Shown here: piece after piece, positions 148 through 45,425 of the stretch
How positions within the stretch are numbered: the stretch's first letter is position 1
How the letters are laid out: each line of letters starts with the position of its first letter
Source of the DNA: Candidatus Falkowbacteria bacterium RIFOXYC2_FULL_36_12
Lineage (GTDB): Bacteria; Patescibacteriota; Patescibacteriia; UBA11705
Assembly: GCA_001778235.1 (NCBI GenBank)
Contig: MFGJ01000001.1
Coordinates: 165,605-229,604 of the forward strand
Direction of reading: 5' to 3'
DNA: 64,000 nucleotides
Translations under genes and position numbers: made by a program
Notes under the pieces: generated by a model
What the model was told of the DNA's origin: nothing
The model's database searches: none
Seen by the model: only the letters and a program-made list of their open reading frames with translations

Positions 148-1458
148 ATGAATATAGTGTTTTTAATTATTTTTGCAGGGGTGTTTGGGTGGTTTGCCTG
201 GAGACACATGGTGGGTGCTCTATGTGTGCTGATTTTTTTATTACCAAGTTATCTAATTCGGTTTAGTTTGTTTGGGATTCCTGTGACATTACTTGAAGTA
301 ATTATTGTGATTTTGTTTGGGATTTTTGTTTTTAAAAGAATGCACTTTGAAAGATTCAAGGTGACAAAAATAGATAAGATAAGTGGTTCAAATTATAAAT
401 GGTTGATTATTGGGATATTATTTTTTTCAACGATAGCAATATTTTTTTCTCCTGATAAAATTTCTGCACTTGGAATTTGGAAAGCGTTTTTTGTTGAACC
501 AATGATGGTGTTTGTGGTTTTTATTAATGTAATAAAAGACAAACATCAATGGGATTTAATAATAAACAGTTTGGGTGGAGTAGCTTTGATAGTTGCCTTG
601 TTTGCGATTTATCAAAAGATTACGGGGCAATTTATTTTCAATGAAGTTTGGCAGGTGGCTGAAACCAGAAGAGTGGTGAGCTTTTATGGCTTTCCGAATG
701 CGGTGGGATTGTTCTTGGCGCCGATTGTGGTGTTGTTTGTAGGAAGGATTGTTACGAATTTACAAAAACTACAAAAATTACTCCACCAAAGGCGGATGCA
801 CCTATGGCGCAAAATACTAGAATTGGTGTTTGATGTGAGTGTTGTTGTTATGGGTGGTTTGGCAATATGGTTTGCGAGGAGTGAAGGGGCGATAGTGGCT
901 GTGGTGATAGGTCTTTTGATGTTGGGATTGTTTTTCAAGAGATTGAGAATATTTACTTTGATTATGATGGCGATTGGGGTGCTGATTGTAGCGGTGGTGC
1001 CACAAGTGAGAGAATTGTTTATTGAAAAAATAAGTTTAGGTGATTTTTCAGGTAACATCAGAGTAATAGTTTGGCAAGAGACTTGGCAAATGTTACGAGA
1101 TCATCAGATATGGGGTGCGGGTTTAGCAGGATTTCAAGCAGTAATCGGGAATTATCATCATGCAATTCAAAATTTTGAAGTTTATTTGTATCCACATAAT
1201 TTTATTTTGAATTTTTGGAGCGAGGTTGGAATTTTTGGGATGTTATTTTTGGTTTTTTTAATAATAAAGTTTTTTTACAATTATCTCCAGGCAAAAAAAA
1301 TAAACAAAGAATGGTATTTGATTTTAATGGCGGTGTTTGTGACTATTTTGGTGCATGGAATTGTTGATGTACCGTATTTTAAAAATGATTTAGCAGTGCT
1401 TTGGTGGTTGGTGGTTGGTATGAGTGTGGTGTTGTTTCGGGAAAAGATTGAAGAATGA
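148..1458 (+). CDS. Polytopic membrane protein of the O-antigen ligase/polymerase (Wzy_C-like) family
   Basis: 436 aa with about 10 hydrophobic helices. The C-terminal half shows a W..E.G.FG pattern, with an HNF...W.E.GIFG motif typical of the O-antigen ligase family. Confidence 0.5.
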   Translation: MNIVFLIIFAGVFGWFAWRHMVGALCVLIFLLPSYLIRFSLFGIPVTLLEVIIVILFGIFVFKRMHFERFKVTKIDKISGSNYKWLIIGILFFSTIAIFFSPDKISALGIWKAFFVEPMMVFVVFINVIKDKHQWDLIINSLGGVALIVALFAIYQKITGQFIFNEVWQVAETRRVVSFYGFPNAVGLFLAPIVVLFVGRIVTNLQKLQKLLHQRRMHLWRKILELVFDVSVVVMGGLAIWFARSEGAIVAVVIGLLMLGLFFKRLRIFTLIMMAIGVLIVAVVPQVRELFIEKISLGDFSGNIRVIVWQETWQMLRDHQIWGAGLAGFQAVIGNYHHAIQNFEVYLYPHNFILNFWSEVGIFGMLFLVFLIIKFFYNYLQAKKINKEWYLILMAVFVTILVHGIVDVPYFKNDLAVLWWLVVGMSVVLFREKIEE

Positions 1459-6153: not shown

Positions 6154-7029
6154 ATGCAAAGACAAAAAATTCGAAAAGCAGTTATTCCTGTGGCTGGCTA
6201 TGGAACAAGATTTTTGCCAGCAACGAAAGCTCAACCAAAAGAAATGTTACCGGTAGTTGACAAACCTATAATTCAATACGCGGTAGAAGAAGCGGTGGCG
6301 GCTGGAATCACTGATATTATCTTGGTAACCGGGAGTGGAAAACGAGCGGTTGAAGATCATTTTAGTTACAATTTTGAAATACAGCATTTCCTCAAAAAAG
6401 TTGGTAAGGAAAAAGAAAGGGAAGAGATAAAAAGGATTGCGGATATGGCAAATTTTATTTATATTCGTCAAAAAGGTCCATATGGAAATGGTACTCCAGT
6501 ACTTTGTGCCAAAGATGTGGTTGGTGATGAACCATTTGTGGTGATTTGGGGTGATGAATTTTGGGATTGTCCGAAGGTGCCAAGAATAAAGCAACTTATT
6601 GATGTTTATGAAAAATATGGTGATCCAGTAATTGTGGCGAAAGATATTACAAAAGAAGAAACAAGAAAATATGGGGTAATTGATGGAGTGAAGGTTGGAA
6701 AAGATGTTTATGAGGTGAAAAAGTTGGTAGAAAAGCCTGGACCAAAAGATGCCCCATCACTGCTTGGGTCTGTTGGTGGATATTTGTTGACTCCTGATAT
6801 TTTTGAGGCTTTGGAACATACAAAGTTGGGTAAGGGTGGAGAGCTTTGGTTGCCTGACGCGATATCAAGATTGATGAAACAGAGAGCTTTGTATTGTAAG
6901 CGAATTGACGGGACTTATTATGATACTGGTTCGGTATTTGGCTATTTGAGAGCTAATGTTGAATTGGCGTTGAAACGAACTGAACTGAAAAAAGAGTTTA
7001 GAAAATATTTGAAAGGGTTGAATATATAG
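6154..7029 (+). CDS. galU: UTP--glucose-1-phosphate uridylyltransferase
   Basis: KAVIPVAGYGTRFLPATKAQPKEMLPVVDKP is the GalU signature. Confidence 0.9.
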   Translation: MQRQKIRKAVIPVAGYGTRFLPATKAQPKEMLPVVDKPIIQYAVEEAVAAGITDIILVTGSGKRAVEDHFSYNFEIQHFLKKVGKEKEREEIKRIADMANFIYIRQKGPYGNGTPVLCAKDVVGDEPFVVIWGDEFWDCPKVPRIKQLIDVYEKYGDPVIVAKDITKEETRKYGVIDGVKVGKDVYEVKKLVEKPGPKDAPSLLGSVGGYLLTPDIFEALEHTKLGKGGELWLPDAISRLMKQRALYCKRIDGTYYDTGSVFGYLRANVELALKRTELKKEFRKYLKGLNI

Positions 7030-7058: not shown

Positions 7059-8522
7059 GTGGGAAAATTTTTGTTAATTGTTAAGGTGAAAAATTATATG
7101 CAGAAAATTAAAAAATGGCGAACAGTTTTAACAGTGTTTTTGATTGCAATTTTTCTTGTTACAACTGGGGCTAGTTGTGCTAAGGGTGGAACCAGTGACG
7201 CCAAAGAATCTTTTAAGCCGGTTACCCTGAAATTTTGGACGGTTTTTGATGATCGAGATGCGTATGCTGATATTATTACTGCATATAAACAGTTACATCC
7301 AAATGTGACGATTGAATTCAAAAAATTGCGGTTTGAAGAATATGAAAAAGAGTTGATAGAAGCTTTTGCTCTTGGACAGGGCCCAGATATTTTTTCAATT
7401 CAAAATACATGGACAAATCAGTATTTAAAATTGCTTGATCCCATGCCACTGACTGTAAGTGTGCCAATAAAAACAATAGAAGGAACTGTGAAAAAAGAAG
7501 AAGTCATAAAATTGGTTACTGAAAAAATGTATACTCCAAGTCAGGTAAAAACAATTTTTGGCGATAATGTGGCAGAAGATACGGTGTTTCAATATAATGA
7601 AGGAACTGAAGATGAACCAATTTTAACACCACGAGTTTTCGGATTGCCAACGAGTTTGGATAATATGGTGCTTTATTATAATCGAGATATTTTGAATAAT
7701 GCAGGTGTGCCTGAACCAGCAAAATATTGGACTGATCTGGAAGGACAGATAGAAAAGATAAGAAAAGTTGATAATGATAATAATATTTTACAAGGGGCGA
7801 TTGCTCTTGGTACTGCAAAAAATGTTGTTCGAAGTTTTGACATTTTATCCTTGTTAATGATGCAACTCAAAACAGAAATGGTTGATGATCGCGGTCAAGT
7901 AAATTTTCATAAGATACCAGCATCTTTATCTGGTCAGGGAATAACAACTCCACCAGGAATTAATGGTTTGGAATTTTATGCGGCTTTTGCGGATCCAATA
8001 TTGAATACTTATACTTGGAATGAGAAAATGTTGGAATCATTGCAGGCTTTTACTTCAGGAAAATTAGCTTATTTCCCTGGATACGCCTATCATAGACCAT
8101 TTATCGAGGCGCAAGCACCTACAATGAATCTGGAAATTGCTCCAATGCTTCAGCTCGAAGGTTATGATACTGTAAACTTTGCTAATTATTGGCTTCAGTC
8201 AGTTTCAGCCAATAGTCAAAATAAAGGTTTTGCCTGGGATTTTGTAAGATTCATGACTTCACCTGAACAGGTAATAAAGTATTTAGATAAAACTGGAAAA
8301 CCAGCAGCTGTTAGGAGTTTGTTTGATAAACAGGTTCAAGATGAAGAGATGTCAGTTTTTGTTGAGCAGACTTTGACTGCAAAATCATGGTATAGAGGGA
8401 AGGATTATAAAGCAGCTGAAAAGATTTTTGATGATATGATAGAATCTGTTGGATTGGGTGAGGTGACGGCAAAAGAAGCGGCTGGATTGGCAGTGCAAAA
8501 GATTCAGCAGACGATGAAATAA
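7059..8522 (+). CDS. Extracellular solute-binding lipoprotein (ABC transporter substrate-binding, SBP family 1-like). The start may be at M 7098.
   Basis: Signal peptide with a TTGASC lipobox. About 450 aa mature periplasmic-binding-protein-like sequence. Confidence 0.6.
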   Translation: MGKFLLIVKVKNYMQKIKKWRTVLTVFLIAIFLVTTGASCAKGGTSDAKESFKPVTLKFWTVFDDRDAYADIITAYKQLHPNVTIEFKKLRFEEYEKELIEAFALGQGPDIFSIQNTWTNQYLKLLDPMPLTVSVPIKTIEGTVKKEEVIKLVTEKMYTPSQVKTIFGDNVAEDTVFQYNEGTEDEPILTPRVFGLPTSLDNMVLYYNRDILNNAGVPEPAKYWTDLEGQIEKIRKVDNDNNILQGAIALGTAKNVVRSFDILSLLMMQLKTEMVDDRGQVNFHKIPASLSGQGITTPPGINGLEFYAAFADPILNTYTWNEKMLESLQAFTSGKLAYFPGYAYHRPFIEAQAPTMNLEIAPMLQLEGYDTVNFANYWLQSVSANSQNKGFAWDFVRFMTSPEQVIKYLDKTGKPAAVRSLFDKQVQDEEMSVFVEQTLTAKSWYRGKDYKAAEKIFDDMIESVGLGEVTAKEAAGLAVQKIQQTMK

Positions 8523-8528
8523 GCGAGA

Positions 8529-8636
8529 AAAGCGAGTACAGCGAGTACAGCGAGTACAGCGAGTGAAGTGAGTACAGTGAGTGAAGTGAGTGAAGTGAGT
8601 ACAGTGAGTGAAGTGAGTACAGTGAGTGAAGTGAGA
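8529..8636. repeat. Tandem 9-bp repeat tract: 12 units of two variants, gcgagtaca and gtgagtgaa
   Basis: Direct reading. Lies immediately upstream (about 25 nt) of the first pilin gene. Confidence 0.85.
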
Positions 8637-8660: not shown

Positions 8661-9020
8661 ATGAAAAATAAGAGAATATTAATTTTAATGGTTGTGGTGA
8701 TTAGTTTCATGCTAGTAAATGTTGTGTCGGCAGCTGGTCTGGTGCCTGATGAATGCCGTGGGGATGCGGATTTAAGTACTTGTAATTTGAGTTCAGTTGA
8801 AGCCACAATATTTAATATTGCAGAATTTTTACTTGGGATTGCTGGTAGTTTGGCTCTGCTAATGTTTGTTTATGGCGGATTTCTGTATATAATCGGTGGA
8901 GCCAGTGAAAAACAAGTAGGGAAAGCAAAAGATGTTTTCAAATATGCAATCACAGGATTAATTATTATATTTTTATCGGGATTAATATTGAGGGTGGTTG
9001 TTCAGGCTTTGGCAGGGTGA
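8661..9020 (+). CDS. TrbC/VirB2-like (CPR-type) pilin family protein 1. Contains a Cys pair.
   Basis: Signal peptide. C-terminal YGGFLYIIGGASEKQVGKAKD...TGLIIIF motif shared with the seven downstream paralogs. Confidence 0.55.
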   Translation: MKNKRILILMVVVISFMLVNVVSAAGLVPDECRGDADLSTCNLSSVEATIFNIAEFLLGIAGSLALLMFVYGGFLYIIGGASEKQVGKAKDVFKYAITGLIIIFLSGLILRVVVQALAG

Positions 9021-9100
9021 GAGTGAAGATTAAAGATTGAAGATCAAAGAGTAAAGATTAGAGATTAAAGATTGATTGGCTGACGGTTTGAAACCGTCAG
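9003..9100 (+). repeat. aagatt(a/g) heptamer/nonamer repeats followed by a conserved palindrome ggctgacggtttgaaaccgtcagg. Likely acts as a terminator.
   Basis: The same composite element occurs at 32975-33057. Confidence 0.7.
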
Positions 9101-9136
9101 GTATGGATGCTAGATATAAATGATTGAGGAGTTTTT

Positions 9137-9736
9137 ATGAAAAAATATTTATTAGTTTTTACATTGATGTTGCTTGTTGGAAGTTTTGTTTTTTCACATA
9201 ATGTTTTGGCTGAAGTCAATGATGATTTTAAGACAATCTGTATTCGTTTGGCAGGACCGGATGCACTATTACAGGGAAAGTGTGCTGAAATAACGCCGGT
9301 TTCTTCCTCGGATTTTGCAAGGTTAAAATGTAAGGAAGTAGCTGAAGCCTTGTCTGATGAAGATGGGGTTCAGGATTGTGAAAATGTGGGAATTATTGCC
9401 CCAAGCACAACAGGTGATACTGCAAGCGGAGAAGGAGCAGAAGATGATTTGATAAAAGGAATATATGATAGTATTGGAAAGTTTGAAGAATTGGGAATTA
9501 CTTCGGCGAATCAAGATGTGCCAACATTTGTAGGAAATATTTTGAAATTATTTTTTGGTATAATTGGTTCAGTTGCTTTAGTAATGTTTATTTATGGTGG
9601 ATTTGGTTATATGACATCAGCGGGCGATCCGAAGAAGGTGGCAAATGCTAAAAATACTTTTATTTGGGCATCACTTGGACTTTTGTTGGTTTTTGGTGCT
9701 TATGCTCTAGTAAATTTTGTAATCAGTAATTTATAA
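9137..9736 (+). CDS. TrbC/VirB2-like pilin family protein 2, with an extended Cys-containing N-domain
   Basis: Signal peptide. ...YGGFGYMTSAGDPKKVANAKNTFIWASLGLLLVFGAYALVNFV. Confidence 0.6.
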   Translation: MKKYLLVFTLMLLVGSFVFSHNVLAEVNDDFKTICIRLAGPDALLQGKCAEITPVSSSDFARLKCKEVAEALSDEDGVQDCENVGIIAPSTTGDTASGEGAEDDLIKGIYDSIGKFEELGITSANQDVPTFVGNILKLFFGIIGSVALVMFIYGGFGYMTSAGDPKKVANAKNTFIWASLGLLLVFGAYALVNFVISNL

Positions 9737-9790
9737 AGGTCGGATAATAATACTCGCGGGGCGAGAATTTAAATATTAATTGAAAAAAAC

Positions 9791-10165
9791 ATGTTAAAAA
9801 AAATTATCGCAATTACAATGGTTTTGACTCTTGCAATAGCAGTCGCAACTCCGGTATTGGCGGCAAGTGATCCGTTCGGAGTAGAGACTGTTGGAACAGA
9901 ATTGAACCTTGGAAACAAAGATATTCGTCAGACAATTGGTGAGATTATCAATGTTGGTTTGGGATTTCTTGGAGTGGTTGCTATTATCATTGTACTTATT
10001 GGTGGTTTCAAGTATATGACTGCTGGTGGAGCTGAAGAAAAGACTAAAGAGGCAAGAAAATGGATAATTTCAGGTGTGATTGGTTTAGCAATTATTTTGT
10101 CTGCATACGCAATTACAACTTTTGTTGTAAATCAACTGGTTACAGCGACTGGTAGTGGTGTTTAG
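9791..10165 (+). CDS. TrbC/VirB2-like pilin family protein 3
   Basis: GGFKYMTAGGAEEKTKEARKWIISGVIGLAIILSAYAITTFV. Confidence 0.6.
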   Translation: MLKKIIAITMVLTLAIAVATPVLAASDPFGVETVGTELNLGNKDIRQTIGEIINVGLGFLGVVAIIIVLIGGFKYMTAGGAEEKTKEARKWIISGVIGLAIILSAYAITTFVVNQLVTATGSGV

Positions 10166-10181
10166 TCACGAAAATTATTGA

Positions 10182-10217
10182 GGCAGAGTTTTAGCAGCTG
10201 AAAAACTCTGCCGTTTT
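10182..10217 (+). terminator. Rho-independent terminator (ggcagagtttt...aaaactctgcc + TTTT)
   Basis: 11-bp stem followed by a T-run. Confidence 0.6.
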
Positions 10218-10252
10218 CACTAGAGTAAAAAGTCTATAAATTTTTTGCCTTA

Positions 10253-10642
10253 GTGAAAGATATGAAGAAATATTTAGTTTTAATTACAATATTAATGCTT
10301 TTTCCCCTTGGGGCGTTAAAGGCGTCGCCAATTGAAGATGGGTTGAATTTATCAGCTACAACTTCAGGCTTGGTGACTGAAGAGCAGACACAATCAGAGG
10401 CGGATTTATTGGTGGCGGAAAAGATAGGAACTATTATCAAGGTTTTTTTGTCAATTATTGGTATTATATTTTTGATGTTGATCATTTTCGGTGGTACTCT
10501 ATGGATGACTGCTGGTGGTGATCAAACTCAACTGACTAAAGGTAAGAACTATATTATTTACGCGGCGATTGGGCTGGTTATGATTGCCGGTAGTTATGCT
10601 GTAACAGATTTTGTGATAAGAGCATTTATTGATCAATTTTAG
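10253..10642 (+). CDS. TrbC/VirB2-like pilin family protein 4
   Basis: FGGTLWMTAGGDQTQLTKGKNYIIYAAIGLVMIAGSYAVTDFV. Confidence 0.6.
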   Translation: MKDMKKYLVLITILMLFPLGALKASPIEDGLNLSATTSGLVTEEQTQSEADLLVAEKIGTIIKVFLSIIGIIFLMLIIFGGTLWMTAGGDQTQLTKGKNYIIYAAIGLVMIAGSYAVTDFVIRAFIDQF

Positions 10643-10656
10643 ATATTATAAAAATT

Positions 10657-11043
10657 GTGCTAAAATGCATATTAAGTATGAAGAATAAAATTTTAATTTG
10701 TTTGGTACTGTTTGGTCTGGTTGTTGGAGGTCAAGTTTTGGCTTTTGATGTGGAAAATACTGGTTTGGGAAAAACTGCGGAAACGGCAGGGTATAATCTG
10801 ACTAAATCTGATCCAATAGTGATTGCTGGTAATGTAATTCAAATATTTTTGGGACTATTAGGTTTAATTTTGATGATTATTTTGGTTTATGCTGGTTTTA
10901 TGTACATGTTGGCTGGAGACAGATCTGATCAGGTGACAAAAGCTAAAGCTTGGATTACTAATAGTATAATAGGAATTGTGATTGTGGCAGGAGCCTATGC
11001 AATTTCAACCTATGTGATTGAGGCATTAATAAGTAGTGTTTAA
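10657..11043 (+). CDS. TrbC/VirB2-like pilin family protein 5
   Basis: AGFMYMLAGDRSDQVTKAKAWITNSIIGIVIVAGAYAISTYV. Confidence 0.6.
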   Translation: MLKCILSMKNKILICLVLFGLVVGGQVLAFDVENTGLGKTAETAGYNLTKSDPIVIAGNVIQIFLGLLGLILMIILVYAGFMYMLAGDRSDQVTKAKAWITNSIIGIVIVAGAYAISTYVIEALISSV

Positions 11044-11045
11044 AT

Positions 11046-11426
11046 ATGAAAAAAATTGTATTGTGTTTAATGATTATTTTGGCTTTATTTGTGATGACAA
11101 CGGTTGTGGTAAATGCCAGTGCTTTTGATCAAGCAGCAGTAAATTTGACCAAAGGTGGAGATCAAGCTTATGGAGAAGGGACTGAAACTGATTTGCCGAT
11201 TTTGGTTGGGAGTATTGTAAATGTTTTTTTGGCTGTGCTTGGTATTGTGCTGACAATAATAATAATTCGTGGTGGTTTTATGTACATGTTGGCTGGTGGT
11301 GATCCAAATCAAACTCAAAAAGCTAAATCATGGATTATTAATGGTGTAATTGGGTTAATAATTATTTTGGCGGCCTATGCGATCTCATCGTTTGTGGTCA
11401 GCAGTTTGGTAGAAGCGGGCAAATAA
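11046..11426 (+). CDS. TrbC/VirB2-like pilin family protein 6
   Basis: GGFMYMLAGGDPNQTQKAKSWIINGVIGLIIILAAYAISSFV. Confidence 0.6.
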   Translation: MKKIVLCLMIILALFVMTTVVVNASAFDQAAVNLTKGGDQAYGEGTETDLPILVGSIVNVFLAVLGIVLTIIIIRGGFMYMLAGGDPNQTQKAKSWIINGVIGLIIILAAYAISSFVVSSLVEAGK

Positions 11427-11441
11427 TTTAAGCTGAAATAT

Positions 11442-11843
11442 ATGAAAAAAATTTTAATATTTTTATTTCTGTTTGTTCTAGTGTTTCTAACATTGCAAAT
11501 AAGTCCGGTTTTAGCAGGGACCACCGAAAGAACTATTGAATCAGAGCTTGGTAAATTTGGGGATACTGGTTACGGAAGTGAAGAAGCAACTCCATTACCA
11601 TTACTTGTTGGGCGAATTATAAGTGTGGTTTTGGGGCTTTTGGGAATTGTGTTATTATTTATAATAATTCGCGGTGGATTTATGTATATGACTGCTGGCG
11701 GTGATCCAAATCAAACCCAGAAAGCTAAATCGTGGATTATAAATGGTGTGATTGGATTGGTGATTTGTTTTACTTCATATATGCTAAGTTCATATATTGT
11801 TGGGAGGCTGATGGAAGATGTGTTGCAGGTGACATTGTTGTAG
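11442..11843 (+). CDS. TrbC/VirB2-like pilin family protein 7
   Basis: GGFMYMTAGGDPNQTQKAKSWIINGVIGLVICFTSYMLSSYI. Confidence 0.6.
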   Translation: MKKILIFLFLFVLVFLTLQISPVLAGTTERTIESELGKFGDTGYGSEEATPLPLLVGRIISVVLGLLGIVLLFIIIRGGFMYMTAGGDPNQTQKAKSWIINGVIGLVICFTSYMLSSYIVGRLMEDVLQVTLL

Positions 11844-11867
11844 ATGTGAGAAGTACTGAAATTTGAT

Positions 11868-12062
11868 GATACAAATATACAAATACTACGAATATTACAA
11901 ATACTAGAGATACGAATATACAAATATTACGAATATTACAAATGCTAGAGATACGAATATACAAATACTACGAATATTACAAATGCTAGAGATACGAATA
12001 TACAAATATTACGAATATTACAAATACTAGAGATACAAAGATACAAATATTACGAATGCTAG
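11868..12062. repeat. Tandem repeat of about 41-42 bp, roughly 4.5 copies (agatacgaatatacaaatattacgaatattacaaatgctag)
   Basis: Direct reading. Lies between pilin 7 and pilin 8. Confidence 0.85.
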
Positions 12063-12148
12063 AAGTATGTATTATAGATATTACGGATTTATGAAAGTAA
12101 TGTATTTAATATATAATTGGAGATATAAAAAATAATTAAATAAAAATT

Positions 12149-12544
12149 ATGAAGACAAAAGTTATTGCAATGGTTTTATCACTCGTAGTGTGTTTATTGC
12201 TCGTTGCACCAGTAGCTTTGGCACAAATTGATATTCAAAGCAATTTGAATGCAACTGGTGAAGGTGTATATGGACCTGGGGATCAACCTTCAGATGAATT
12301 GCCAGTAATTATTGGACGAATTATCAATGTGGTGCTTGGTTTTATGGGTGTAGTCATGGTATTGATTGTAATTTATGGTGGATTTCTCTATATGACTGCT
12401 GGTGGTGAGCCAGGGAAAGCAGACAAAGCAAAAAGCTGGATTATAAACGGTATTATTGGTTTGATTATCATGCTGTCTGCCTATGGAATCACCAGTTTTG
12501 TTATCACTCGGTTAACAGCTGCCACAGGAACAACTGCAAATTAA
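12149..12544 (+). CDS. TrbC/VirB2-like pilin family protein 8
   Basis: GGFLYMTAGGEPGKADKAKSWIINGIIGLIIMLSAYGITSFV. Confidence 0.6.
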   Translation: MKTKVIAMVLSLVVCLLLVAPVALAQIDIQSNLNATGEGVYGPGDQPSDELPVIIGRIINVVLGFMGVVMVLIVIYGGFLYMTAGGEPGKADKAKSWIINGIIGLIIMLSAYGITSFVITRLTAATGTTAN

Positions 12545-12559
12545 AAAATAAGAAATATA

Positions 12560-12582
12560 GCCCCCGAAAGGGGGTTTTTTGT
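12560..12582 (+). terminator. Rho-independent terminator gcccccgaaagggggTTTTTT, closing the pilin array
   Basis: Perfect GC stem with a GAAA loop and a T6 run. Confidence 0.8.
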
Positions 12583-17035: not shown

Positions 17036-17539
17036 ATGAAAAATGAATTGATAGTATTAGGGATTGATCCAGGGTTTGCTTTGACCGGTTATGGGGTAAT
17101 AAAGGCTAGTTCACAGAAAATTGAAGCAATTGATTTTGGTTGTTTTGAAACAAAAGTGGGTGAAGATTTTTCAGATAGATTATTATATTTGAGCAAAGAA
17201 TTGAAGAAAATCATTATAAAATATAAACCGGATATTGTTGGTGTGGAGGAATTGTTTTTCAATAAAAATGTAAAAACCGCTTTGAAGGTAGCGCATGCGC
17301 GCGGTGTAGTCTTACTGGTGTGTGGTCAGTTTGGAATTCCAGCATTTGAATTTACTCCGACACAGGTCAAACAAGCGATTTCTTGTTATGGTCGAGCTGA
17401 TAAAAAACAAGTACAACAAATGATAAAAATTTTGTTAAATTTAAAAAAAACACCAAAGCCTGATGATGTAGCCGATGCTTTGGCGGTTGCTGTTTGCGCA
17501 GCAAATTCTTATAAAATAAAATCGGTTTATGAAAAATAA
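17036..17539 (+). CDS. ruvC: Crossover junction endodeoxyribonuclease RuvC
   Basis: LGIDPGFALTGYGVI...DALAVAV motifs, in the conserved yebC-ruvC arrangement. Confidence 0.85.
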   Translation: MKNELIVLGIDPGFALTGYGVIKASSQKIEAIDFGCFETKVGEDFSDRLLYLSKELKKIIIKYKPDIVGVEELFFNKNVKTALKVAHARGVVLLVCGQFGIPAFEFTPTQVKQAISCYGRADKKQVQQMIKILLNLKKTPKPDDVADALAVAVCAANSYKIKSVYEK

Positions 17540-19082
17540 AATTTTAGTTTTAACTGTGGTTATTCTGGGCTTGATGTTGAATTTTTCAGCGATTATGGCA
17601 CAGGAATTGCCAGCTTCAGATGATGTTTTGTTTAGCAATGAACTTCAAGCAATAGCTGGTAGTGATAGAAATGTGGTTGTTGGCAGACAGGTGTTATTTA
17701 GTGGCAATGCTTCTGTCCAGCCAGCAGGAAAGAATGTTAAATATTTATGGGATTTTGGCGATGGAATAAAAATTGAAGGGGTTGATGTAACACATGTTTA
17801 TACACGGTCAGGAGTTTATCGAACAGTTTTGACAATCAGCTATGATGACCAAGTTGCTTCAGATGAAATAATTGTTTCGGTTGATAAAGATATTGTGTTA
17901 TTAATCACAGATTCATTTGTGAAAGAAGATGTGAGGGATCGGTTGCAAGAAAAAGCCAGTACGCAGGGAATTCTTTTGGTAGATTTGCATGTTGATGATA
18001 GTTCGGTTGATTATTTGACGGTGAATGATTTGATGCAGAAAATTATTGATAACAAGGAAGATATAAAACAAGCAACAAATGTAATTTTGTTGACTCATAA
18101 CAATATTGGTCTTGATGCCTTGATTAGTGCCAGTCAGGAATTGTCAAAAACAACTAATTTGAATACTCTGGGTTTTAAAAATAAAAATTTAGTTGTATTG
18201 ACTGATGAAAGTTTGAATGTTACTGCGAAAATAGCCCAAAATGTTTATGGTTTGTTGACTCCGCAATCATTGCTGGTAGCCAAAGCTGAAGCTCTGGAAT
18301 TGGTGATAGGAAGACTGCAAATAAACCAAGTGGTTGAAGATTTGAAAAATAGTGAAATTGAGTATCAATTGTTAGGAGTACACACTCAAAGGCCTTTGAC
18401 TAATTTACGGGTTTGGAATGTATTCTCCTATATGGTAAGTTTTATGGTCAATAACGGTGTTTCACTAAATACGATTTATTTAATATTAATTTTGCCAGTG
18501 ATTGCGACATTGATTGCTTTTTCGCGCCAAATAATTGGTGTTAAATCTTTTGGTTTGTATGCGCCAACTTTGGTAGCTATGTCATTTCTGGTGACTGGAA
18601 TTAAATATGGCATTGCTTTTTTTGTGGTGGTGTTGTTGGTGGGAACACTTGGAAGATTGGTAGCGAGAAAGATTCGTTTGATGTACTTGCCGAGAATGGC
18701 GATTGTATTGTCGATTGTAAGTTTATCAATTTTTGTTTTGTTTTTTGTCGGATCTTTGATGGAGAAAACTGATTTGATTGCGATTTCTATTTTCCCCATA
18801 TTAATCATGGTGATTATTACGGAGAAATTTATTTCTTCCCAGATTGAACTTGGTAGTTTGACGGCTTTTAAGTTGGTATTAGAAACTTTGGTGTTGTCAA
18901 TTGTTAGTTATTTATTGGCTAATTGGCAACCGCTTAGATCATTAATTTTAGGTTATCCTGAATTTATTTTTGTTACATTCCTCCTAAATTATTTAATCGG
19001 TAAATGGAATGGATTGAGGTTGCTAGAATTATATCGTTTTAGAAAGGTAATAAAAAATGTTGAGATTTCTGAAAAAAAGTAA
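17529..19082 (+). CDS. Membrane protein with signal peptide, extracellular PKD-like domain (WDFGDG...HVY..SGVY), and C-terminal ~7 TM helices. Possibly of the 7TM family associated with ATP-grasp peptide-ligase systems.
   Basis: PKD motif read directly. About seven hydrophobic helices in the last ~220 aa. Immediately upstream of an ATP-grasp/retropepsin gene. Confidence 0.55.
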   Translation: MKNKILVLTVVILGLMLNFSAIMAQELPASDDVLFSNELQAIAGSDRNVVVGRQVLFSGNASVQPAGKNVKYLWDFGDGIKIEGVDVTHVYTRSGVYRTVLTISYDDQVASDEIIVSVDKDIVLLITDSFVKEDVRDRLQEKASTQGILLVDLHVDDSSVDYLTVNDLMQKIIDNKEDIKQATNVILLTHNNIGLDALISASQELSKTTNLNTLGFKNKNLVVLTDESLNVTAKIAQNVYGLLTPQSLLVAKAEALELVIGRLQINQVVEDLKNSEIEYQLLGVHTQRPLTNLRVWNVFSYMVSFMVNNGVSLNTIYLILILPVIATLIAFSRQIIGVKSFGLYAPTLVAMSFLVTGIKYGIAFFVVVLLVGTLGRLVARKIRLMYLPRMAIVLSIVSLSIFVLFFVGSLMEKTDLIAISIFPILIMVIITEKFISSQIELGSLTAFKLVLETLVLSIVSYLLANWQPLRSLILGYPEFIFVTFLLNYLIGKWNGLRLLELYRFRKVIKNVEISEKK

Positions 19083-20454
19083 GGGAGTTTTGGGCATGAA
19101 TGCTCGGAACTTGGATTTTATTCGTCCAGGCGGGTCAAAGGCTGCTCGAAGGTTGGTTGATAACAAACTTCGGACAAAAAGAATGTTGAAAAAAAATGGA
19201 TTGCCAATAGCAAAATTGATTGCAGCTATAAAAACACGCGATGAATATGATAAATTTGATTGGGGTAGTCTACCTGATAGTTTTGTGTTAAAACCAAATC
19301 AGGGACTTGGTGGTGAAGGTATAATGGTGACATTTGGAAGAAAGAAAAATGGAGGTTGGGTATTGCCACTTGATAGAGATGCTGAATTACCTGATATTAT
19401 GCTCCGGGTCAGTAATATTCTTGATGGAGATTATTCAATGACATCAACACCTGACGCAGCATTTTTTGAAGAGAGAATAAAAATTCATCCGACTTTTAAG
19501 CTTTATTCATATAAAGGTGTGCCTGATATTAGAATAATTGTTTATAATAAAGTACCGGTAATGGCGATGCTCCGATTGCCGACCAAATATTCCAATGGAA
19601 AGGCAAATTTGCATGCTGGCGGTATTGGTGTGGGTATTGATATTGAAACTGGGATTACCACTCAAGCAATATTTAGAGGTAAGCTAATTGAATTTCTGCC
19701 TGATAGAAAATTTCCGATTCGAGGTATAAAAATTCCTTATTGGAATCAGATGCTAGATATCGCAGTAGAGTCTCAAATTGCTTGTGGTTTGAATTATGTT
19801 GGAGTTGATATTGCCATAGATCGTGAAAGAGGTCCAATAATTTTGGAGTTAAATGCCAGACCTGGATTGGAAATTCAGGTAGCAAATTTGGCGCCACTGA
19901 AAGATAGGCTGATTCGAGTAAAAGGGTTGAAGATAAAAACTGTTAAGAAGGGAATAAAGATGGCTAAGGAGTTGTTTGGTGGTGAAGTTGAACAGGAAAT
20001 TGAGGAGATTTCAGGAAAGCAGGTTGTTGGTTTGATTGAGACGGTGAAATTGCAAGGGAAAAATAATGAAGTGATTGAGCTAAAAGCCAAAATTGATACA
20101 GGAGCTGGTGTTACTTCAATTGATGAGGATTTGGCTATTGCCCTTGGGTTTGAAAGTGCGTTGGAATATTGTAAATCATTTAATTTGCCTGATGTGATGA
20201 CTCGGGAACAGGTAGCAGAACTTAGTAGTAAAAAACTTTGGAAGGATTTTGAAAAGCACCCGGACATTATTTCAGTAATAAAAACATTTAGTTCACATGG
20301 GGCATCATATCGAATGGGGGTGCCGATTAAATTAACTTTGTCTGGGGTAAAATTTACTTCTACGGTCTCTGTAATCAGCCGAAAAGGTATGCAGTACCCG
20401 ATAATTATTGGTAGAAGGGATTTGAAAAAATTTTTAGTTGATCCGAGTAAGTGA
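19057..20454 (+). CDS. ATP-grasp ligase (alpha-L-glutamate-ligase/RimK-related) fused to a C-terminal retropepsin-like aspartyl protease domain (DTGA)
   Basis: N-terminal ATP-grasp-like region (LKPNQGLGGEGI, NLHAGG, ILELNARPG). C-terminal VVGLIETVKL...KAKIDTGAGVTSID retropepsin active-site motif. Confidence 0.6.
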   Translation: MLRFLKKSKGVLGMNARNLDFIRPGGSKAARRLVDNKLRTKRMLKKNGLPIAKLIAAIKTRDEYDKFDWGSLPDSFVLKPNQGLGGEGIMVTFGRKKNGGWVLPLDRDAELPDIMLRVSNILDGDYSMTSTPDAAFFEERIKIHPTFKLYSYKGVPDIRIIVYNKVPVMAMLRLPTKYSNGKANLHAGGIGVGIDIETGITTQAIFRGKLIEFLPDRKFPIRGIKIPYWNQMLDIAVESQIACGLNYVGVDIAIDRERGPIILELNARPGLEIQVANLAPLKDRLIRVKGLKIKTVKKGIKMAKELFGGEVEQEIEEISGKQVVGLIETVKLQGKNNEVIELKAKIDTGAGVTSIDEDLAIALGFESALEYCKSFNLPDVMTREQVAELSSKKLWKDFEKHPDIISVIKTFSSHGASYRMGVPIKLTLSGVKFTSTVSVISRKGMQYPIIIGRRDLKKFLVDPSK

Positions 20455-20557
20455 GGGGGAATGAGTTGGAAAGATGGTGAAATGTTGAAATATTGGGTAA
20501 ATAAGGTTGAAAAAATAGTTGGAAATAATGAAATAGTGAAATAAAGTTGAAAATAGA

Positions 20558-21436
20558 TTGAAAATAAGTTGTAAATATAGGATTATGAGATTATTAATTG
20601 TAGGGCCTGATACGCAGGAAAATAGGATGATTGTGCAGGAGGCAAAAGACAGAGGACATGAAGTTTATAGAATATCAATTACAAGATTGAGTTTCATAAT
20701 GGCGAATGGTGATTTCAAAGTTTTTTTCAATAAAAAAGAGTTGAAGGGAATTGATGCTTGTTTAATTCGTGGGGTAAGCCCTCATTTTGCTAAAGCAATA
20801 ACGCTGGCCAAGACATTGCATCGGCAAGGGACAAGGGTTGTTGACCGGGAGCTTTACCAAAAAGTTTATGCTTTAAATAAAATGTTTACGTATTCTGGAT
20901 TGAGCTATCATGGTTTGCCTTGTTTGCCATCATATTATTTTTCAAATAATGAGGAATTTAATAATTATAAGAAAAAATTGAAATTTCCAGTGTTGGTTAA
21001 GGATATTAATGGAATGCACGGCAGAAATATTTTTTTCAAATATTCATTGAAGGAATTGGAAGATTTTTTCAACTGGAGAAAAATTAATAAATATTTTATA
21101 CAAAAATTTGTCGACTCGGAATATTATTACCGCGTGCTGGTGGTGGGGAAAAAGGTCCTTGGTGCAATGAAAAGAAATACACTAAAAAGTATTAGAAGAA
21201 AAAGAATTCCTTTAGCAAAGAGATCACATTACAGTAAACTGACAAGAGAATTAAAGCGGTTAGGTAAAAAAGCCGCAAAGGCAACTAATTCAGATATTGC
21301 AGGAGTTGATATTATTTATGATGGCGATAAGCCATATATTCTAGAGGTGAACAGATCACCACAGTTTAAAAGGTTTACGCAAATTATGCAGGTAAAAGTG
21401 GCTGAAGAAATTGTTAAATACATAGAAAAATATTAA
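20558..21436 (+). CDS. RimK-like ATP-grasp ligase (start probably at MRLLIVG, 20585)
   Basis: FPVLVKDINGMHGRNIF, YRVLVVGKKVLGAMKR, AGVDIIYDGDKPYILEVNRSP. Confidence 0.6.
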   Translation: MKISCKYRIMRLLIVGPDTQENRMIVQEAKDRGHEVYRISITRLSFIMANGDFKVFFNKKELKGIDACLIRGVSPHFAKAITLAKTLHRQGTRVVDRELYQKVYALNKMFTYSGLSYHGLPCLPSYYFSNNEEFNNYKKKLKFPVLVKDINGMHGRNIFFKYSLKELEDFFNWRKINKYFIQKFVDSEYYYRVLVVGKKVLGAMKRNTLKSIRRKRIPLAKRSHYSKLTRELKRLGKKAAKATNSDIAGVDIIYDGDKPYILEVNRSPQFKRFTQIMQVKVAEEIVKYIEKY

Positions 21437-21439
21437 TAT

Positions 21440-22408
21440 ATGAAAATTTCTCCATATTCAAGAGTTTTAATCAGAGAGGCAAAGAAGTTTGGAATAAAAA
21501 TACACCCTGTTGGTGAAGCAGGGAAAATGTTTATATTGCGTAGAGGAGAAAAGCATACTTTTATTTATCAATCATTAACAGAGCTGACAAGTGACCCAAT
21601 GTATAAGATTTCGGCAAATAAATATTTAACTAATTTTACACTGAAAAAGTTTGGATTGCCAATCACAAATTTTAAACTGGGAAAAGATATAAATGATGCT
21701 AAAAAATTTCTGAAAAAATACAAAAAGATTGTTATAAAACCATTGTCAGCCAATCAGGGTAAGGGAATTACTATTGGTATAAAGAAAGCCAGTGAATTGC
21801 AAGAAGCGATTGATGGGGCTCTGAAATATACTGTAAGAAATAAGTTGGATAGCACTTACAAGAAAAATTTTTTATTGGAGAAGGCGGTGCCCGGTGATGA
21901 TCACCGTCTGTTAGTGATTAATTTCAAAATTGTTTTTGCGATAAAAAAAATTCCTGCGTATGTCGTAGGTGATGGTGAAGGTACAATTAAACAATTGATT
22001 GAGAAAAAGAATATTTTAAAATTAAAACATAAAAAGCCAATAATAATTGACGAGACATTGAGACATGTTTTGGCAAGGCAAGATTTGAGATTGAGAGATG
22101 TGCCTAAACTTGGTCAAAAAATATTTGTTCGAAGAACAGCAAATCTGGCAACGGGTGGTGAATCAATTGATATAACAGATGATCTTAATCCCAAGATAAA
22201 AAAAATGGCGATTCAGGCGGCGAAAATAATGAAAATGCCTGTGGCTGGGTTTGATTTTATGTGTAGAGATTATACAAAATCAAAAGGGTTTTTTATCGAG
22301 GTAAATCCAATCCCGGGGTTGATGATTCATCATTTTCCACATATAGGAAAGCCGAGAAATCCTGCTAGAGAAATAATAAAAATGTTAATAAAAAAGAAAT
22401 TGATATGA
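21440..22408 (+). CDS. ATP-grasp ligase, cyanophycin-synthetase N-terminal-like (paralog A)
   Basis: KKIVIKPLSANQGKGI...DHRLLVINFKIVFAIKKIPAYVVGDGEGTIKQLIEKKN...AGFDFMC. Confidence 0.6.
   Translation: MKISPYSRVLIREAKKFGIKIHPVGEAGKMFILRRGEKHTFIYQSLTELTSDPMYKISANKYLTNFTLKKFGLPITNFKLGKDINDAKKFLKKYKKIVIKPLSANQGKGITIGIKKASELQEAIDGALKYTVRNKLDSTYKKNFLLEKAVPGDDHRLLVINFKIVFAIKKIPAYVVGDGEGTIKQLIEKKNILKLKHKKPIIIDETLRHVLARQDLRLRDVPKLGQKIFVRRTANLATGGESIDITDDLNPKIKKMAIQAAKIMKMPVAGFDFMCRDYTKSKGFFIEVNPIPGLMIHHFPHIGKPRNPAREIIKMLIKKKLI

Positions 22409-43927: not shown

Positions 43928-45425
<1,498 letters not shown>

What the first reader, a model, noticed from the sequence alone, without database searches (positions are those of the whole stretch)
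8661..12544. Array of eight tandem TrbC/VirB2-like pilin paralogs
Eight consecutive co-directional genes of 119-199 aa. Each has an N-terminal signal/TM segment and a conserved C-terminal block (I..V..GhhGhh.hh.hIYGGFhYMTAGGD(P)..K..KAK.WI.N.hIGLhI.h.AYAI..FV). Two members (8661, 9137) add Cys-containing N-domains. Intergenic spacers are as short as 2 nt. The array is capped by a strong terminator at 12560. Such arrays are a hallmark of CPR genomes but are functionally uncharacterised (conjugative-type pilus versus adhesion to a host cell). The paralog diversity suggests antigenic or functional diversification.
Basis: partly seen in the sequence, partly recalled or inferred. Interest (0 to 1): 0.55.

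Follow-up and report, generated by a model that had tools for sequence, protein, structure and literature searches.

The report
Eight-gene VirB2-like pilin array in Falkowbacteria
This is a real operon of eight divergent type-IV-secretion-type pilin genes in an ultrasmall groundwater (CPR) bacterium, of a kind already described in 2023-2025; what looks unreported is that it is almost always preceded by a sugar-type binding lipoprotein gene.

Summary
Eight co-directional ORFs lie at 8661-12544. All eight pass the Pfam PF18895 (T4SS_pilin) gathering score. Each has a signal peptide, a variable exposed N-region and a two-helix hairpin. A terminator follows at 12559-12582. The window is identical to contigs of Ca. 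Falkowbacteria RIFOXYD2_FULL_35_9 (class ABY1).

The kind is already published. Quiñonero-Coronel et al. 2025 report 441 VirB2 arrays of 2-11 genes in Patescibacteria, and their dataset includes this assembly. Wang et al. 2023 found such an array essential in Southlakia epibionticum.

I add three points:
- **Stable paralogs.** The eight genes are one-to-one, collinear orthologues of an eight-gene array in another Falkowbacteria species. This argues against fast-turnover antigenic variation.
- **Larger conserved operon.** The array follows a GalU-like nucleotidyltransferase gene and an orphan sugar-type solute-binding lipoprotein gene. Of 71 metagenomic loci found through that binding protein alone, 68 carry pilin genes just downstream. 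None has T4SS machinery homologues of the one T4SS cluster I had (L035) within 7 kb.
- **Weak link to solved pilins.** Only 2 of 8 pass Pfam TrbC/VirB2. PDB profile, Foldseek and hhalign tests gave nothing significant.

Pilus formation is inferred, not shown. I rate the finding a new member of a known kind, of moderate interest.

The parts
6154..7029 (+). GalU-like nucleotidyltransferase gene, a frequent first gene of the conserved module
   Evidence: It matches Pfam NTP_transferase at E 1.9e-26. The same gene sits upstream of the binding-protein gene in L006, L036, L038 and a JGI contig. Of 64 binding-protein loci with at least 1.5 kb upstream, 44 hold a homologue, and in 30 it lies just upstream on the same strand.
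7098..8522 (+). Orphan sugar-type extracellular solute-binding protein, a probable lipoprotein and a conserved partner of the pilin array
   Evidence: It matches Pfam SBP_bac_1 (E 7e-23) and SBP_bac_8. A Cys after the signal segment is invariant in 4 orthologues. Its nearest PDB relatives are sugar and oligosaccharide ABC-transporter binding proteins. Of 71 loci found through this protein, 68 have pilin genes downstream. No ABC permease or ATPase was found in the window. The longest ORF starts at GTG 7059.
8522..8635 (.). Intergenic 9-nt tandem repeat (about 12 copies) between the binding-protein gene and pilin gene 1
   Evidence: Found by TRF and visible in the sequence. Similar purine-rich repeats occur at the same position in L006, but also in other intergenic regions of both genomes. 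It is probably a genome-wide trait.
8661..9020 (+). Pilin gene 1 (119 aa). Its exposed N-region holds 2 conserved Cys.
   Evidence: PF18895 43.6 bits and PF04956 28.6 bits, both above cutoff. It is 55% identical to its orthologue u1, and both Cys are kept.
9137..9736 (+). Pilin gene 2 (199 aa), with a roughly 100-aa N-terminal extension holding 4 Cys and an acidic linker
   Evidence: PF18895 53.6 bits and PF04956 29.0 bits. The 4 Cys are conserved in u2. The extension has no homologues in the 5.8-billion-protein search. In the AF2 model the hairpin has pLDDT of about 90 and the extension 50-60.
9791..10165 (+). Pilin gene 3 (124 aa), the most widely conserved paralog
   Evidence: PF18895 36.7 bits. 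It is 67% identical to u3. It is the reciprocal best hit of L036_4 (60%) and L004_1 (50%).
10253..10642 (+). Pilin gene 4 (129 aa from GTG, or 126 aa from ATG 10262)
   Evidence: PF18895 31.2 bits. Public gene calls give 126 aa. It is 41% identical to u4.
10657..11043 (+). Pilin gene 5 (128 aa from GTG, or 121 aa from ATG 10678)
   Evidence: PF18895 42.4 bits. The 121-aa form is P0005, seen on 17 contigs. It is 49% identical to u5.
11046..11426 (+). Pilin gene 6 (126 aa), 2 nt after gene 5
   Evidence: PF18895 40.5 bits. It is 56% identical to u6 and 54% to paralog g7.
11442..11843 (+). Pilin gene 7 (133 aa)
   Evidence: PF18895 43.3 bits. It is 47% identical to u7.
11868..12057 (.). 41-nt tandem repeat (4.6 copies, 94% match) in the 305-nt spacer before gene 8
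   Evidence: Found by TRF and visible in the sequence. The same spacer in L006 has no such repeat. Its function is unknown.
12149..12544 (+). Pilin gene 8 (131 aa)
   Evidence: PF18895 43.4 bits. It is 68% identical to u8. The AF2 model gives a helical hairpin (H51-82 and H88-126) with pLDDT above 90.
12559..12582 (+). Intrinsic terminator closing the operon
   Evidence: It has a 7-pair stem (5 G-C), a GAAA loop and a T-run (sequence). No + strand terminator-like site lies between 8300 and 12558.

Best explanation
The locus is a chromosomal operon of Ca. Falkowbacteria (Patescibacteria, class ABY1). It encodes a GalU-like nucleotidyltransferase, an orphan sugar-type solute-binding lipoprotein and eight VirB2-like pilins of Pfam family PF18895.

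**Shown by sequence.** Each pilin has a cleavable AxA-type signal peptide. After it comes a 21-30 residue exposed N-region (about 100 residues in gene 2) that is specific to each paralog. Then come two hydrophobic helices joined by a short Gly- and Lys-rich loop (GGDP..K.KAK). The positive-inside rule would place that loop in the cytoplasm and both termini outside the cell.

**Inferred.** The mature pilins form a membrane pool. The monoderm-type (MPF-FATA-like) T4SS, which a published table reports elsewhere in this genome, extracts and polymerises them. The product would be a mixed or multi-type surface filament used to contact a host cell. The eight paralogs have distinct, long-maintained roles, such as major and minor subunits or subunits that display small disulfide-bonded ectodomains. 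They are not interchangeable variants. The co-transcribed binding protein probably works with them in recognising or capturing a glycan or sugar.
For: **Family membership.** All 8 pass PF18895, 2 of 8 pass PF04956, and all 8 hit NF045849.

**Architecture.** Signal peptide, two hydrophobic segments and a basic loop are seen in all eight. The hairpin is modelled with pLDDT above 90.

**Link of the family to T4SS.**
- A 5-gene array lies next to VirB6/TrbL, PrgI, TraC-like and VirB4 genes in L035.
- PMC12102498 reports a pilin gene near virB4 in 1135 of 1948 assemblies and 441 arrays of 2-11 genes. It lists this assembly as VirB4-positive.
- The array inside the S. epibionticum T4SS cluster is essential (PMC10633639; PMC12857230).

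**Operon structure.** Spacers are as short as 2-15 nt, there is no internal + strand terminator-like site, and a terminator follows gene 8.

**Stable specialisation.**
- All eight are reciprocal best hits of the collinear array in Falkowbacteria UBA11705. Orthologue identity is 41-68%, against at most 52% for any non-orthologous window-UBA11705 pair.
- The Cys residues of g1 and g2 are conserved.
- The exposed regions of g1, g3 and g8 are 59-71% identical between the species.

**Binding-protein linkage.** Of 71 loci ascertained through the binding protein, 68 have pilins downstream. All 38 loci with at least 6 kb downstream carry 1-12 pilin domains. Spacers are as short as -6 to +6 nt.
Against: - No T4SS machinery lies in the window: none within 8.6 kb upstream or 51 kb downstream.
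- No homologue of the L035 T4SS proteins lies within 7 kb of any of the 80 binding-protein-linked arrays.
- Tests against authentic VirB2 gave nothing significant. This covers the PDB profile search, Foldseek (best E about 1) and hhalign against R388 TrwL (probability 0.45%).
- The PF04956 passes are marginal (28.6 and 29.0 bits against a cutoff of 27.9).
- No filament has been seen for any member of this family.
- The same domain occurs as covalently fused polypilins and as the anchor of giant PKD proteins. That fits a membrane-anchor role as well as a filament role.
- The presence of VirB4 in this genome rests on a published table, not on my own search.
Confidence: 0.6

Rival explanations
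1. **T4SS-independent envelope complex.** The two-helix 'pilin' hairpin is a general membrane-anchoring and oligomerising module in CPR bacteria. This array, with its dedicated binding lipoprotein, would form a membrane or surface assembly that captures or takes up host-derived sugars or glycans, or that adheres to host glycans. No VirB4-driven pilus would be involved.
For: - The binding protein and the array are tightly and anciently linked, and T4SS genes are absent from all 80 such loci.
- The binding protein has no ABC permease or ATPase partner in 64 kb.
- Relatives include proteins with one signal peptide and 3-17 tandem hairpins, that is 6-34 predicted transmembrane helices.
- Other relatives are giant PKD-repeat proteins with an N-terminal hairpin.
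- No significant similarity to solved VirB2 pilins was found.
- Glycosylation and polysaccharide genes recur around arrays: GalU, GT2, PMT and Wzy.
Against: - Curated profiles place the domain with T4SS pilins.
- Many arrays, including the essential one of S. epibionticum and L035 here, lie inside T4SS clusters.
- Nearly all Patescibacteria that carry these pilins also carry VirB4.
- Fusion proteins keep the out-out topology, so they are also compatible with a filament.
Confidence: 0.25
2. **Variation cassette.** The paralogs are interchangeable alternatives, as proposed for the VirB2 paralogs of Anaplasma and Bartonella. Different ones would be expressed or selected to match different hosts or to evade recognition.
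For: - Sequence divergence among the paralogs is high, at 30-54% identity.
- This reading is proposed in PMC12102498.
- Tandem repeats lie in three spacers and could in principle alter expression.
- Copy number varies from 1 to 12 among related loci.
- One public assembly carries a premature stop in gene 2.
Against: - The set of eight is 1:1 collinear and orthologous across two species that are only 41-68% identical. There is no lineage-specific gain or loss.
- Paralog-specific exposed regions and Cys pairs are conserved.
- All eight are intact, and the tight spacers suggest co-transcription.
- Repeat copy number is identical in the independent assemblies compared.
- Similar repeats occur throughout the genome.
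Confidence: 0.1
3. **Not pilins.** The proteins are generic small lipoproteins or unrelated two-pass membrane proteins, and the profile hits reflect hydrophobic composition.
For: - The hits to solved structures are non-specific helical hairpins.
- Transmembrane-rich profiles can attract biased matches.
Against: - No lipobox Cys follows any of the eight signal peptides.
- PF18895 scores are 5-27 bits above the curated cutoff for all eight.
- The conserved motif lies mainly in the loop and helix ends (YGGF.YMTAGGD..K.KAK.WI), not in bulk hydrophobicity.
- The profile finds 30,720 cluster representatives at E of 1e-10 or better.
Confidence: 0.02

Closest known systems
VirB2-like pilin arrays of Patescibacteria (Quiñonero-Coronel et al. 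2025, PMC12102498; the essential array SEML1_0006-0019 region of Ca. Southlakia epibionticum, Wang et al. 2023, PMC10633639)
   Same: - Same Pfam family (PF18895).
- Same phylum.
- Tandem co-directional small genes. Eight genes falls within the reported range of 2-11.
- Similar divergence: 30-54% here, against a reported mean of 25% and maximum of 54%.
- The assembly GCA_001780315.1 is in that study's dataset and is listed as VirB4-positive.
   Different: - This array is not in a T4SS cluster. No VirB4, VirB6 or PrgI lies within 8.6 kb upstream or 51 kb downstream.
- It follows a conserved GalU-like gene and an orphan binding-protein gene. The main text of that paper does not contain 'solute-binding', and my one four-term literature search returned nothing.
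- I show 1:1 orthology of all eight paralogs between species, which was not reported there.
TrbC/VirB2 conjugative pilins of Gram-negative T4SS (Pfam PF04956; Agrobacterium VirB2, RP4 TrbC, R388 TrwL)
   Same: - Size of about 100-130 aa.
- A long signal peptide and two hydrophobic helices separated by a short basic loop.
- Two of the eight pass the PF04956 gathering score.
   Different: - The organism is a monoderm with an MPF-FATA-like T4SS.
- There are eight paralogs rather than one gene.
- The genes are unlinked to virB3 and virB4.
- No significant profile, fold or hhalign match to solved or canonical VirB2 was found.
- Cyclisation and pilus formation are unknown.
Mbov_0395 family pilin-like conjugal transfer protein of Mycoplasma ICEs (NCBIfam NF045849)
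   Same: It is the best curated NCBIfam match for seven of the eight (E 4e-6 to 7e-11; gene 1 does not match). It covers nearly the whole 80-position model. Like this array, it belongs to a monoderm, MPF-FATA-type system.
   Different: - Only 2 of 8 reach the family cutoff of 40 bits.
- The Mycoplasma protein is a single ICE gene, not a chromosomal array.
- I found no paper that analyses that protein as a pilin.
VirB2 paralog clusters of Anaplasma phagocytophilum and Bartonella
   Same: They are tandem, sequence-divergent VirB2 paralogs in a host-dependent bacterium. PMC12102498 uses them as the analogy.
   Different: Those are read as antigenic or host-range variants in Gram-negative pathogens. 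Here the paralog set is conserved 1:1 between species.
PrgZ/TraC pheromone-binding proteins of enterococcal conjugative plasmids (from my own knowledge, not tested here)
   Same: A solute-binding lipoprotein is encoded with a monoderm T4SS-related gene set, without its own permease.
   Different: PrgZ belongs to the OppA-type peptide-binding family. The protein here belongs to the sugar (SBP_bac_1, CUT1-like) family. The resemblance is an analogy only.

Membership tests
Pfam PF18895 T4SS_pilin | Profile match above the curated gathering score (26.6 bits) | tested here: met
   All eight score 31.2-53.6 bits.
Pfam PF18895 T4SS_pilin | Signal peptide followed by a two-helix hydrophobic hairpin with a short polar loop | tested here: met
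   Hydropathy peaks and AxA-type sites are present in all eight. AF2 models the hairpin with pLDDT above 90.
Patescibacteria VirB2 array (as defined in PMC12102498) | At least 2 pilin genes in tandem, or separated by one non-pilin gene, in a Patescibacteria genome, with low identity between the paralogs | tested here: met
   Eight consecutive genes with 30-54% local identity. The genome is Ca. Falkowbacteria, class ABY1.
TrbC/VirB2 pilin (Pfam PF04956) | Profile match above the gathering score (27.9 bits) | tested here: inconclusive
   g1 scores 28.6 and g2 29.0, which pass. g3, g5, g6 and g7 score 18-22 bits, below the cutoff. g4 and g8 give no hit.
TrbC/VirB2 pilin (Pfam PF04956) | Detectable similarity to experimentally solved or canonical VirB2-type pilins | tested here: not met
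   The PDB profile search gave no pilin hit at E up to 10. The best Foldseek match to PDB has E of about 1, and an archaeal conjugation pilus ranks 27th at E=4. hhalign against TrwL gives probability 0.45%. tblastn against plasmids finds nothing. These are weak tests for a short helical hairpin.
TrbC/VirB2 pilin (Pfam PF04956) | Encoded with T4SS machinery (VirB3, VirB4, VirB6) | tested here: not met
   No such gene is in the 64-kb window. No homologue of the L035 T4SS proteins (phmmer, E 1e-5) lies in the 80 binding-protein-linked loci. Relatives in L035 are linked to T4SS genes. VirB4 is reported elsewhere in this assembly.
TrbC/VirB2 pilin (Pfam PF04956) | Polymerises into a T4SS-dependent extracellular pilus | not testable with these tools
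   This needs microscopy and genetics. The FEMS review (PMC12857230) still calls it a possibility only.
NCBIfam NF045849 (Mbov_0395 pilin-like conjugal transfer protein) | Score above the curated cutoff (40 bits) | tested here: inconclusive
   g2 scores 41.6 and g3 40.3, which pass. g7 scores 39.9, g8 38.2, g6 38.1, g5 30.5 and g4 26.3. g1 gives no hit.
Type IV pilus (T4P/T2SS) pilins | N-terminal prepilin methylation motif (G-F-T/S-L-I/L-E) cleaved by PilD | tested here: not met
   The motif is absent from all six frames of the window. No N_methyl Pfam hit was found for the eight proteins.
Bacterial lipoproteins | Lipobox with an invariant Cys at the end of the signal peptide | tested here: not met
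   None of the eight has a Cys at the cleavage region; the sites are AxA-type. The upstream binding protein does have an invariant Cys.

The most novel reading that the evidence does not exclude
The pilin array is one half of a conserved, T4SS-unlinked module that appears to be undescribed: GalU-like nucleotidyltransferase, orphan sugar-type binding lipoprotein, then 1-12 VirB2-like pilins. The module is widespread in ABY1-type Patescibacteria. In this reading the pilins and the binding protein act together as a host-glycan sensing or sugar-scavenging surface apparatus. Either a pilus delivers or exposes the binding protein's ligand, or the hairpins form the membrane component that the binding protein lacks. 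That would give the speculated 'pilus as uptake conduit' idea (PMC12857230) a concrete, testable molecular partner.
Probability: 0.3. Interest if true: 0.65.

Novelty: new member of a known kind. Interest (0 to 1): 0.4.

Why it matters
Patescibacteria are a large share of bacterial diversity. They live attached to other cells, and the one genetic study available found their T4SS and pilin array essential for that lifestyle. What the pilins do is unknown.

This locus does not reveal a new kind of system. It does sharpen the question in three ways:
- The paralog set is ancient and ordered. That favours a multi-subunit structure over antigenic variation.
- In one large lineage the array is an operon with a dedicated sugar-type binding protein and lies apart from the T4SS ATPase genes.
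- The link to authentic VirB2 pili is weaker than the family name suggests.

Each point suggests a direct experiment in the cultivable relatives.

Tried and rejected
1. **PDB profile search** with the paralog alignment found no pilin.
3. **hhalign** of the 100-sequence family alignment against R388 TrwL gave no signal. The template was a single sequence, so this is a weak test.
4. **tblastn** of gene 8 against 72,556 plasmids found no match.
I repeated it with g6, g7 and g8.
6. **Homologue search with gene 2** found only the pilin half. The Cys-rich extension has no detectable relatives, and its AF2 model has low confidence.
7. **Promoter scan** was not above the shuffled expectation, 25 sites against 20.3. 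No promoter is claimed.
8. **NCBIfam and Pfam scans** of the unannotated window ORFs found no hidden T4SS parts.
10. **Alternative genetic code.** I considered read-through as the source of the multi-domain 'polypilins' and rejected it. The sequences have one signal peptide, clean linkers and the same domain calls under codes 11 and 25.
11. **Tandem repeats as array-specific regulators.** I considered this and rejected it. Similar repeats occur in many other spacers of both Falkowbacteria genomes.

Full report
**1. The observation**

ORF listing shows eight consecutive + strand ORFs at exactly the stated coordinates: 8661-9020, 9137-9736, 9791-10165, 10253-10642, 10657-11043, 11046-11426, 11442-11843 and 12149-12544. 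Their lengths are 119-199 aa. Public gene calls on identical DNA start genes 4 and 5 at the internal ATGs 10262 and 10678, giving 126 and 121 aa.

Pairwise local identity is 30-54%, highest between g6 and g7.

Each protein has the same layout:
- an N-terminal hydrophobic signal segment ending in an AxA-type site (VSA|A, VLA|E, VLA|A, LKA|S, VLA|F, VNA|S, VLA|G, ALA|Q);
- a polar region of 21-30 residues, or about 100 residues in g2;
- two hydrophobic segments separated by a short Gly- and Lys-rich loop.

Spacers are 116, 54, 87, 14, 2, 15 and 305 nt. A terminator-like hairpin (AGCCCCC-GAAA-GGGGGTT plus a T-run) sits at 12559-12582. No + strand terminator-like site occurs earlier in the array.

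A family HMM that I built finds exactly eight domains in the 64 kb, with E from 1e-29 to 1e-42. One small correction: gene 1 has only a 21-residue exposed segment with two Cys, not an added domain.

**2. What the proteins are**

- **Pfam.** All eight exceed the gathering score of PF18895 (T4SS_pilin), at 31-54 bits against a cutoff of 26.6. For PF04956 (TrbC/VirB2), g1 and g2 just pass (28.6 and 29.0 against 27.9), four more are sub-threshold, and g4 and g8 do not match.
- **NCBIfam.** The best family for seven of the eight is NF045849, the Mbov_0395 pilin-like conjugal transfer protein of Mycoplasma ICEs. Two are above its cutoff; g1 does not match.
- **Other pilin types excluded.** There is no lipobox and no type-IV-pilus prepilin motif.
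- **Structure.** AlphaFold2 with a 100-sequence alignment models g8 as a signal helix, a low-confidence linker and a long helical hairpin (H51-82 and H88-126, pLDDT above 90). The g2 model has the same hairpin and a low-confidence, partly helical N-extension.

Tests against authentic VirB2-type pilins were negative or uninformative:
- a profile search of all PDB sequences found no pilin;
- Foldseek against PDB gave only generic hairpins with E of 1 or more;
- hhalign against R388 TrwL gave a probability of 0.45%;
- tblastn against plasmids found nothing.

Membership of PF18895 is therefore firm. Membership of the classical TrbC/VirB2 family is marginal by sequence and untestable by fold.

**3. 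Where it comes from and what surrounds it**

The window is base-for-base identical to two groundwater metagenome contigs. It differs at one base from GCA_001780315.1, Ca. Falkowbacteria bacterium RIFOXYD2_FULL_35_9.

It is ordinary chromosome. It carries Wzy-like, NUDIX, ATP-grasp, GalU-like nucleotidyltransferase, solute-binding protein, PGI, YebC, RuvC, an ATP-grasp cluster, PBP1, SMC, RecQ, 16S rRNA and tRNAs, TrmD, S16, a Xer-type integrase, PolA and HolA.

No VirB4, VirD4, VirB6 or PrgI is present in the 64 kb. Neither is any ABC permease or ATPase. A published table lists this assembly as VirB4-positive (PMC12102498 Table S1). I could not locate that gene myself.

**4. What is already known**

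Quiñonero-Coronel et al. 2025 (PMC12102498) searched 3,035 Patescibacteria genomes with PF18895 and PF04956, among other profiles. They report the following:
- VirB2-like pilins occur in 1,948 VirB4-positive assemblies, and lie near virB4 in 1,135 of them.
- There are 441 arrays of 2-11 pilin genes in 383 assemblies, with mean identity 25% and maximum 54%.
- They suggest host-range or antigenic versatility, by analogy with Bartonella and Anaplasma.

Wang et al. 2023 (PMC10633639) found the pilin series inside the S. epibionticum T4SS cluster essential by Tn-seq. They noted that Gram-positive T4SSs normally lack a pilus. A 2025 review (PMC12857230) still treats pilus formation as an 'intriguing possibility'. 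It speculates about a conduit for uptake from the host.

The finding is thus a member of a documented kind. My own look-ups confirm both situations. In L035, five pilins sit beside TrbL/VirB6, PrgI, TraC-like and VirB4 genes. In L004 and L034, arrays sit among housekeeping genes.

**5. New detail: a stable, ordered paralog set**

Ca. Falkowbacteria UBA11705 (L006) has an eight-gene array in the same order. It includes the long second gene and the wide spacer before the eighth gene.

- Every window paralog is the reciprocal best hit of the gene at the same position. Orthologue identity is 41-68%, against at most 52% for any non-orthologous window-UBA11705 pair.
- The two Cys of g1 and the four Cys of g2 are conserved.
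- The exposed N-regions of g1, g3 and g8 are 59-71% identical between the species. Those of the other five are 33-41%.
- Beyond Falkowbacteria, orthology blurs except for g3.

The duplications therefore predate the species split, and each copy has been kept. This fits distinct structural roles better than a rapidly turning-over variation cassette.

**6. New detail: a conserved partner gene**

The gene just upstream (7098-8522) encodes an SBP_bac_1/SBP_bac_8 protein. It has an invariant Cys after its signal segment. Its PDB relatives are distant sugar and oligosaccharide binding proteins.

The same gene precedes or sits within pilin arrays in four other places:
- L006/L038;
- a Magasanikbacteria genome, where the order is nucleotidyltransferase, pilin, binding protein, then 11 more pilin genes, with two non-pilin genes interspersed;
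- L039, where the spacer is 0 nt;
- a JGI contig.

To remove ascertainment through pilins, I scanned metagenome contigs with an alignment of four of these binding proteins. This returned 80 loci at 31-48% identity to the window protein. They form 66 clusters at 95% identity and 49 at 70%.

- Of 71 loci with at least 800 nt downstream, 68 have pilin domains downstream on the same strand.
- All 38 loci with at least 6 kb downstream have 1-12 pilin domains, with a median of 8.
- Spacers are as short as -6 to +6 nt.
- The three exceptions have under 1.7 kb of downstream sequence.
- A GalU-like gene lies immediately upstream in 30 of 64 evaluable loci.
- No homologue of the L035 VirB4, TraC-like, PrgI or TrbL proteins occurs in any of the 80 loci.

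A caveat applies. The four seed proteins all came from pilin-linked loci, so the claim concerns this one binding-protein subfamily. The main text of PMC12102498 does not contain 'solute-binding'. A full-text search combining four terms (Patescibacteria, solute-binding protein, pilin, type IV secretion) returned nothing.

**7. How it most likely works**

*Shown.*
- The genes form an operon-like block closed by one terminator.
- The products have Sec-type signal peptides.
- The products have a two-helix hairpin with a basic loop. That predicts an out-in-out topology with both termini outside.

*Inferred.*
- The mature proteins form a membrane pool.
- The MPF-FATA-like T4SS encoded elsewhere extracts and assembles them into a surface filament containing several subunit types.
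- Small disulfide-bonded or acidic ectodomains are displayed on the outside.
- The co-encoded binding lipoprotein contributes glycan or sugar recognition.

I put 0.6 on this reading.

*The main rival (0.25).* In this lineage the hairpin is a T4SS-independent membrane or surface module that works with the binding protein. Three facts favour it:
- T4SS genes are absent from all 80 linked loci.
- The binding protein is an orphan.
- Relatives include polypilin fusions with one signal peptide and 3-17 hairpins, and giant PKD-repeat proteins anchored by an N-terminal hairpin.

*Lesser rivals.* The variation-cassette reading gets 0.1. The 'not pilins' reading is effectively excluded.

**8. Verdict**

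The system is a new member of a known kind, not a new kind. The family is very large: the profile finds 87,979 cluster representatives at E of 1e-3 or better.

Interest is moderate (0.4). The array itself is expected in a CPR genome. The conserved binding-protein linkage, the 1:1 orthology and the weak tie to authentic VirB2 are useful, testable refinements of an open question about how these bacteria use their pilins.

Noticed in passing
window 1-64000: Strand asymmetry is extreme. GC skew is +0.3 to +0.42 over most of the window and 0.26 overall. Third-codon-position skew is +0.58 for + strand genes and -0.20 on the coding strand of - strand genes. The + strand is therefore G-rich whatever the gene orientation, which points to a replication-linked bias.
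   Followed up: partly
window 8522-8635, 9020-9073, 11868-12057, 32975-33010, 36292-36330, 63451-63477; L006 3591-3681, 6875-7068, 16009-16048, 18933-18990: Short-period (7-41 nt), mostly purine-rich tandem repeats fill many intergenic spacers in both Falkowbacteria genomes. They are not confined to the pilin array. Copy numbers are identical in the independent assemblies compared.
   Followed up: partly
window 9458: This is the only difference from the NCBI assembly GCA_001780315.1. The G-to-T change creates a premature stop at codon 108 of pilin gene 2, which is called there as 107-aa and 81-aa fragments. It may be a population variant or an assembly error.
   Followed up: partly
P0120, P0122, P0123, P0127 (representative library); L009-L032: 'Polypilins': single proteins with one signal peptide and 2-17 tandem T4SS_pilin hairpins, for example 552 aa with 6 and 1775 aa with 17. 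The domain calls are the same under genetic codes 11 and 25, so they are not read-through artefacts. I found no mention of them in the papers read.
   Followed up: partly
L030 7645-17222 (Peribacteria chromosome OZ246407.1); similar in L009-L012, L018-L020, L022, L025, L031, L032: A recurrent block in Peribacteria, Peregrinibacteria and Gracilibacteria. It has two ORFs of about 330 aa, each with three pilin domains. Next comes a giant protein of 1,500-3,300 aa with an N-terminal pilin domain and PKD repeats. In L030 an 835-aa PKD protein follows; ORFs of about 800 aa with a weak pilin hit follow in L018, L025 and L031. Neither Pfam scans of the larger L030 ORFs nor the phmmer search found a VirB4 within 10 kb.
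   Followed up: partly
L073 89-2089, L074 2906-3640, L036 1-1272 and about 20 other binding-protein-linked loci: In one subclade of the binding-protein and pilin loci, type-IV-pilus-type (N_methyl) proteins lie upstream. One has a CarboxypepD_reg domain. An unannotated 471-aa family lies there too. T4P-type and T4SS-type pilin genes are therefore neighbours.
   Followed up: no
L034 11087-12343; L036 15723-16472; L039 11142-11849; L106 13842-14657; window 148-1458: Glycosylation and polysaccharide genes recur inside or beside pilin arrays: a PMT-type protein mannosyltransferase, GT2 glycosyltransferases and Wzy-like genes. This raises the question of whether the exposed pilin regions are glycosylated.
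   Followed up: no
window 43931-45425 (-) and 42344-43563 (-): The 16S rRNA gene is followed by five tRNA genes (Val, Ile, Phe, Pro, Gly). No 23S or 5S gene lies anywhere in the 64 kb, so the rRNA operon is unlinked.
   Followed up: no
window 17529-23349: A cluster encodes a PKD plus 7TM_transglut membrane protein, followed by four ATP-grasp (RimK or sugar-transfer type) enzymes. It lies just upstream of a class A PBP, and part of it is conserved next to the array in L038 and L039.
   Followed up: no
window 28766-29050: A 123-bp direct repeat (2 copies, 96% match) and a related 45-bp repeat lie in a spacer. Each holds an inverted GC-rich segment (CCTGAA...TTCAGGG).
   Followed up: no
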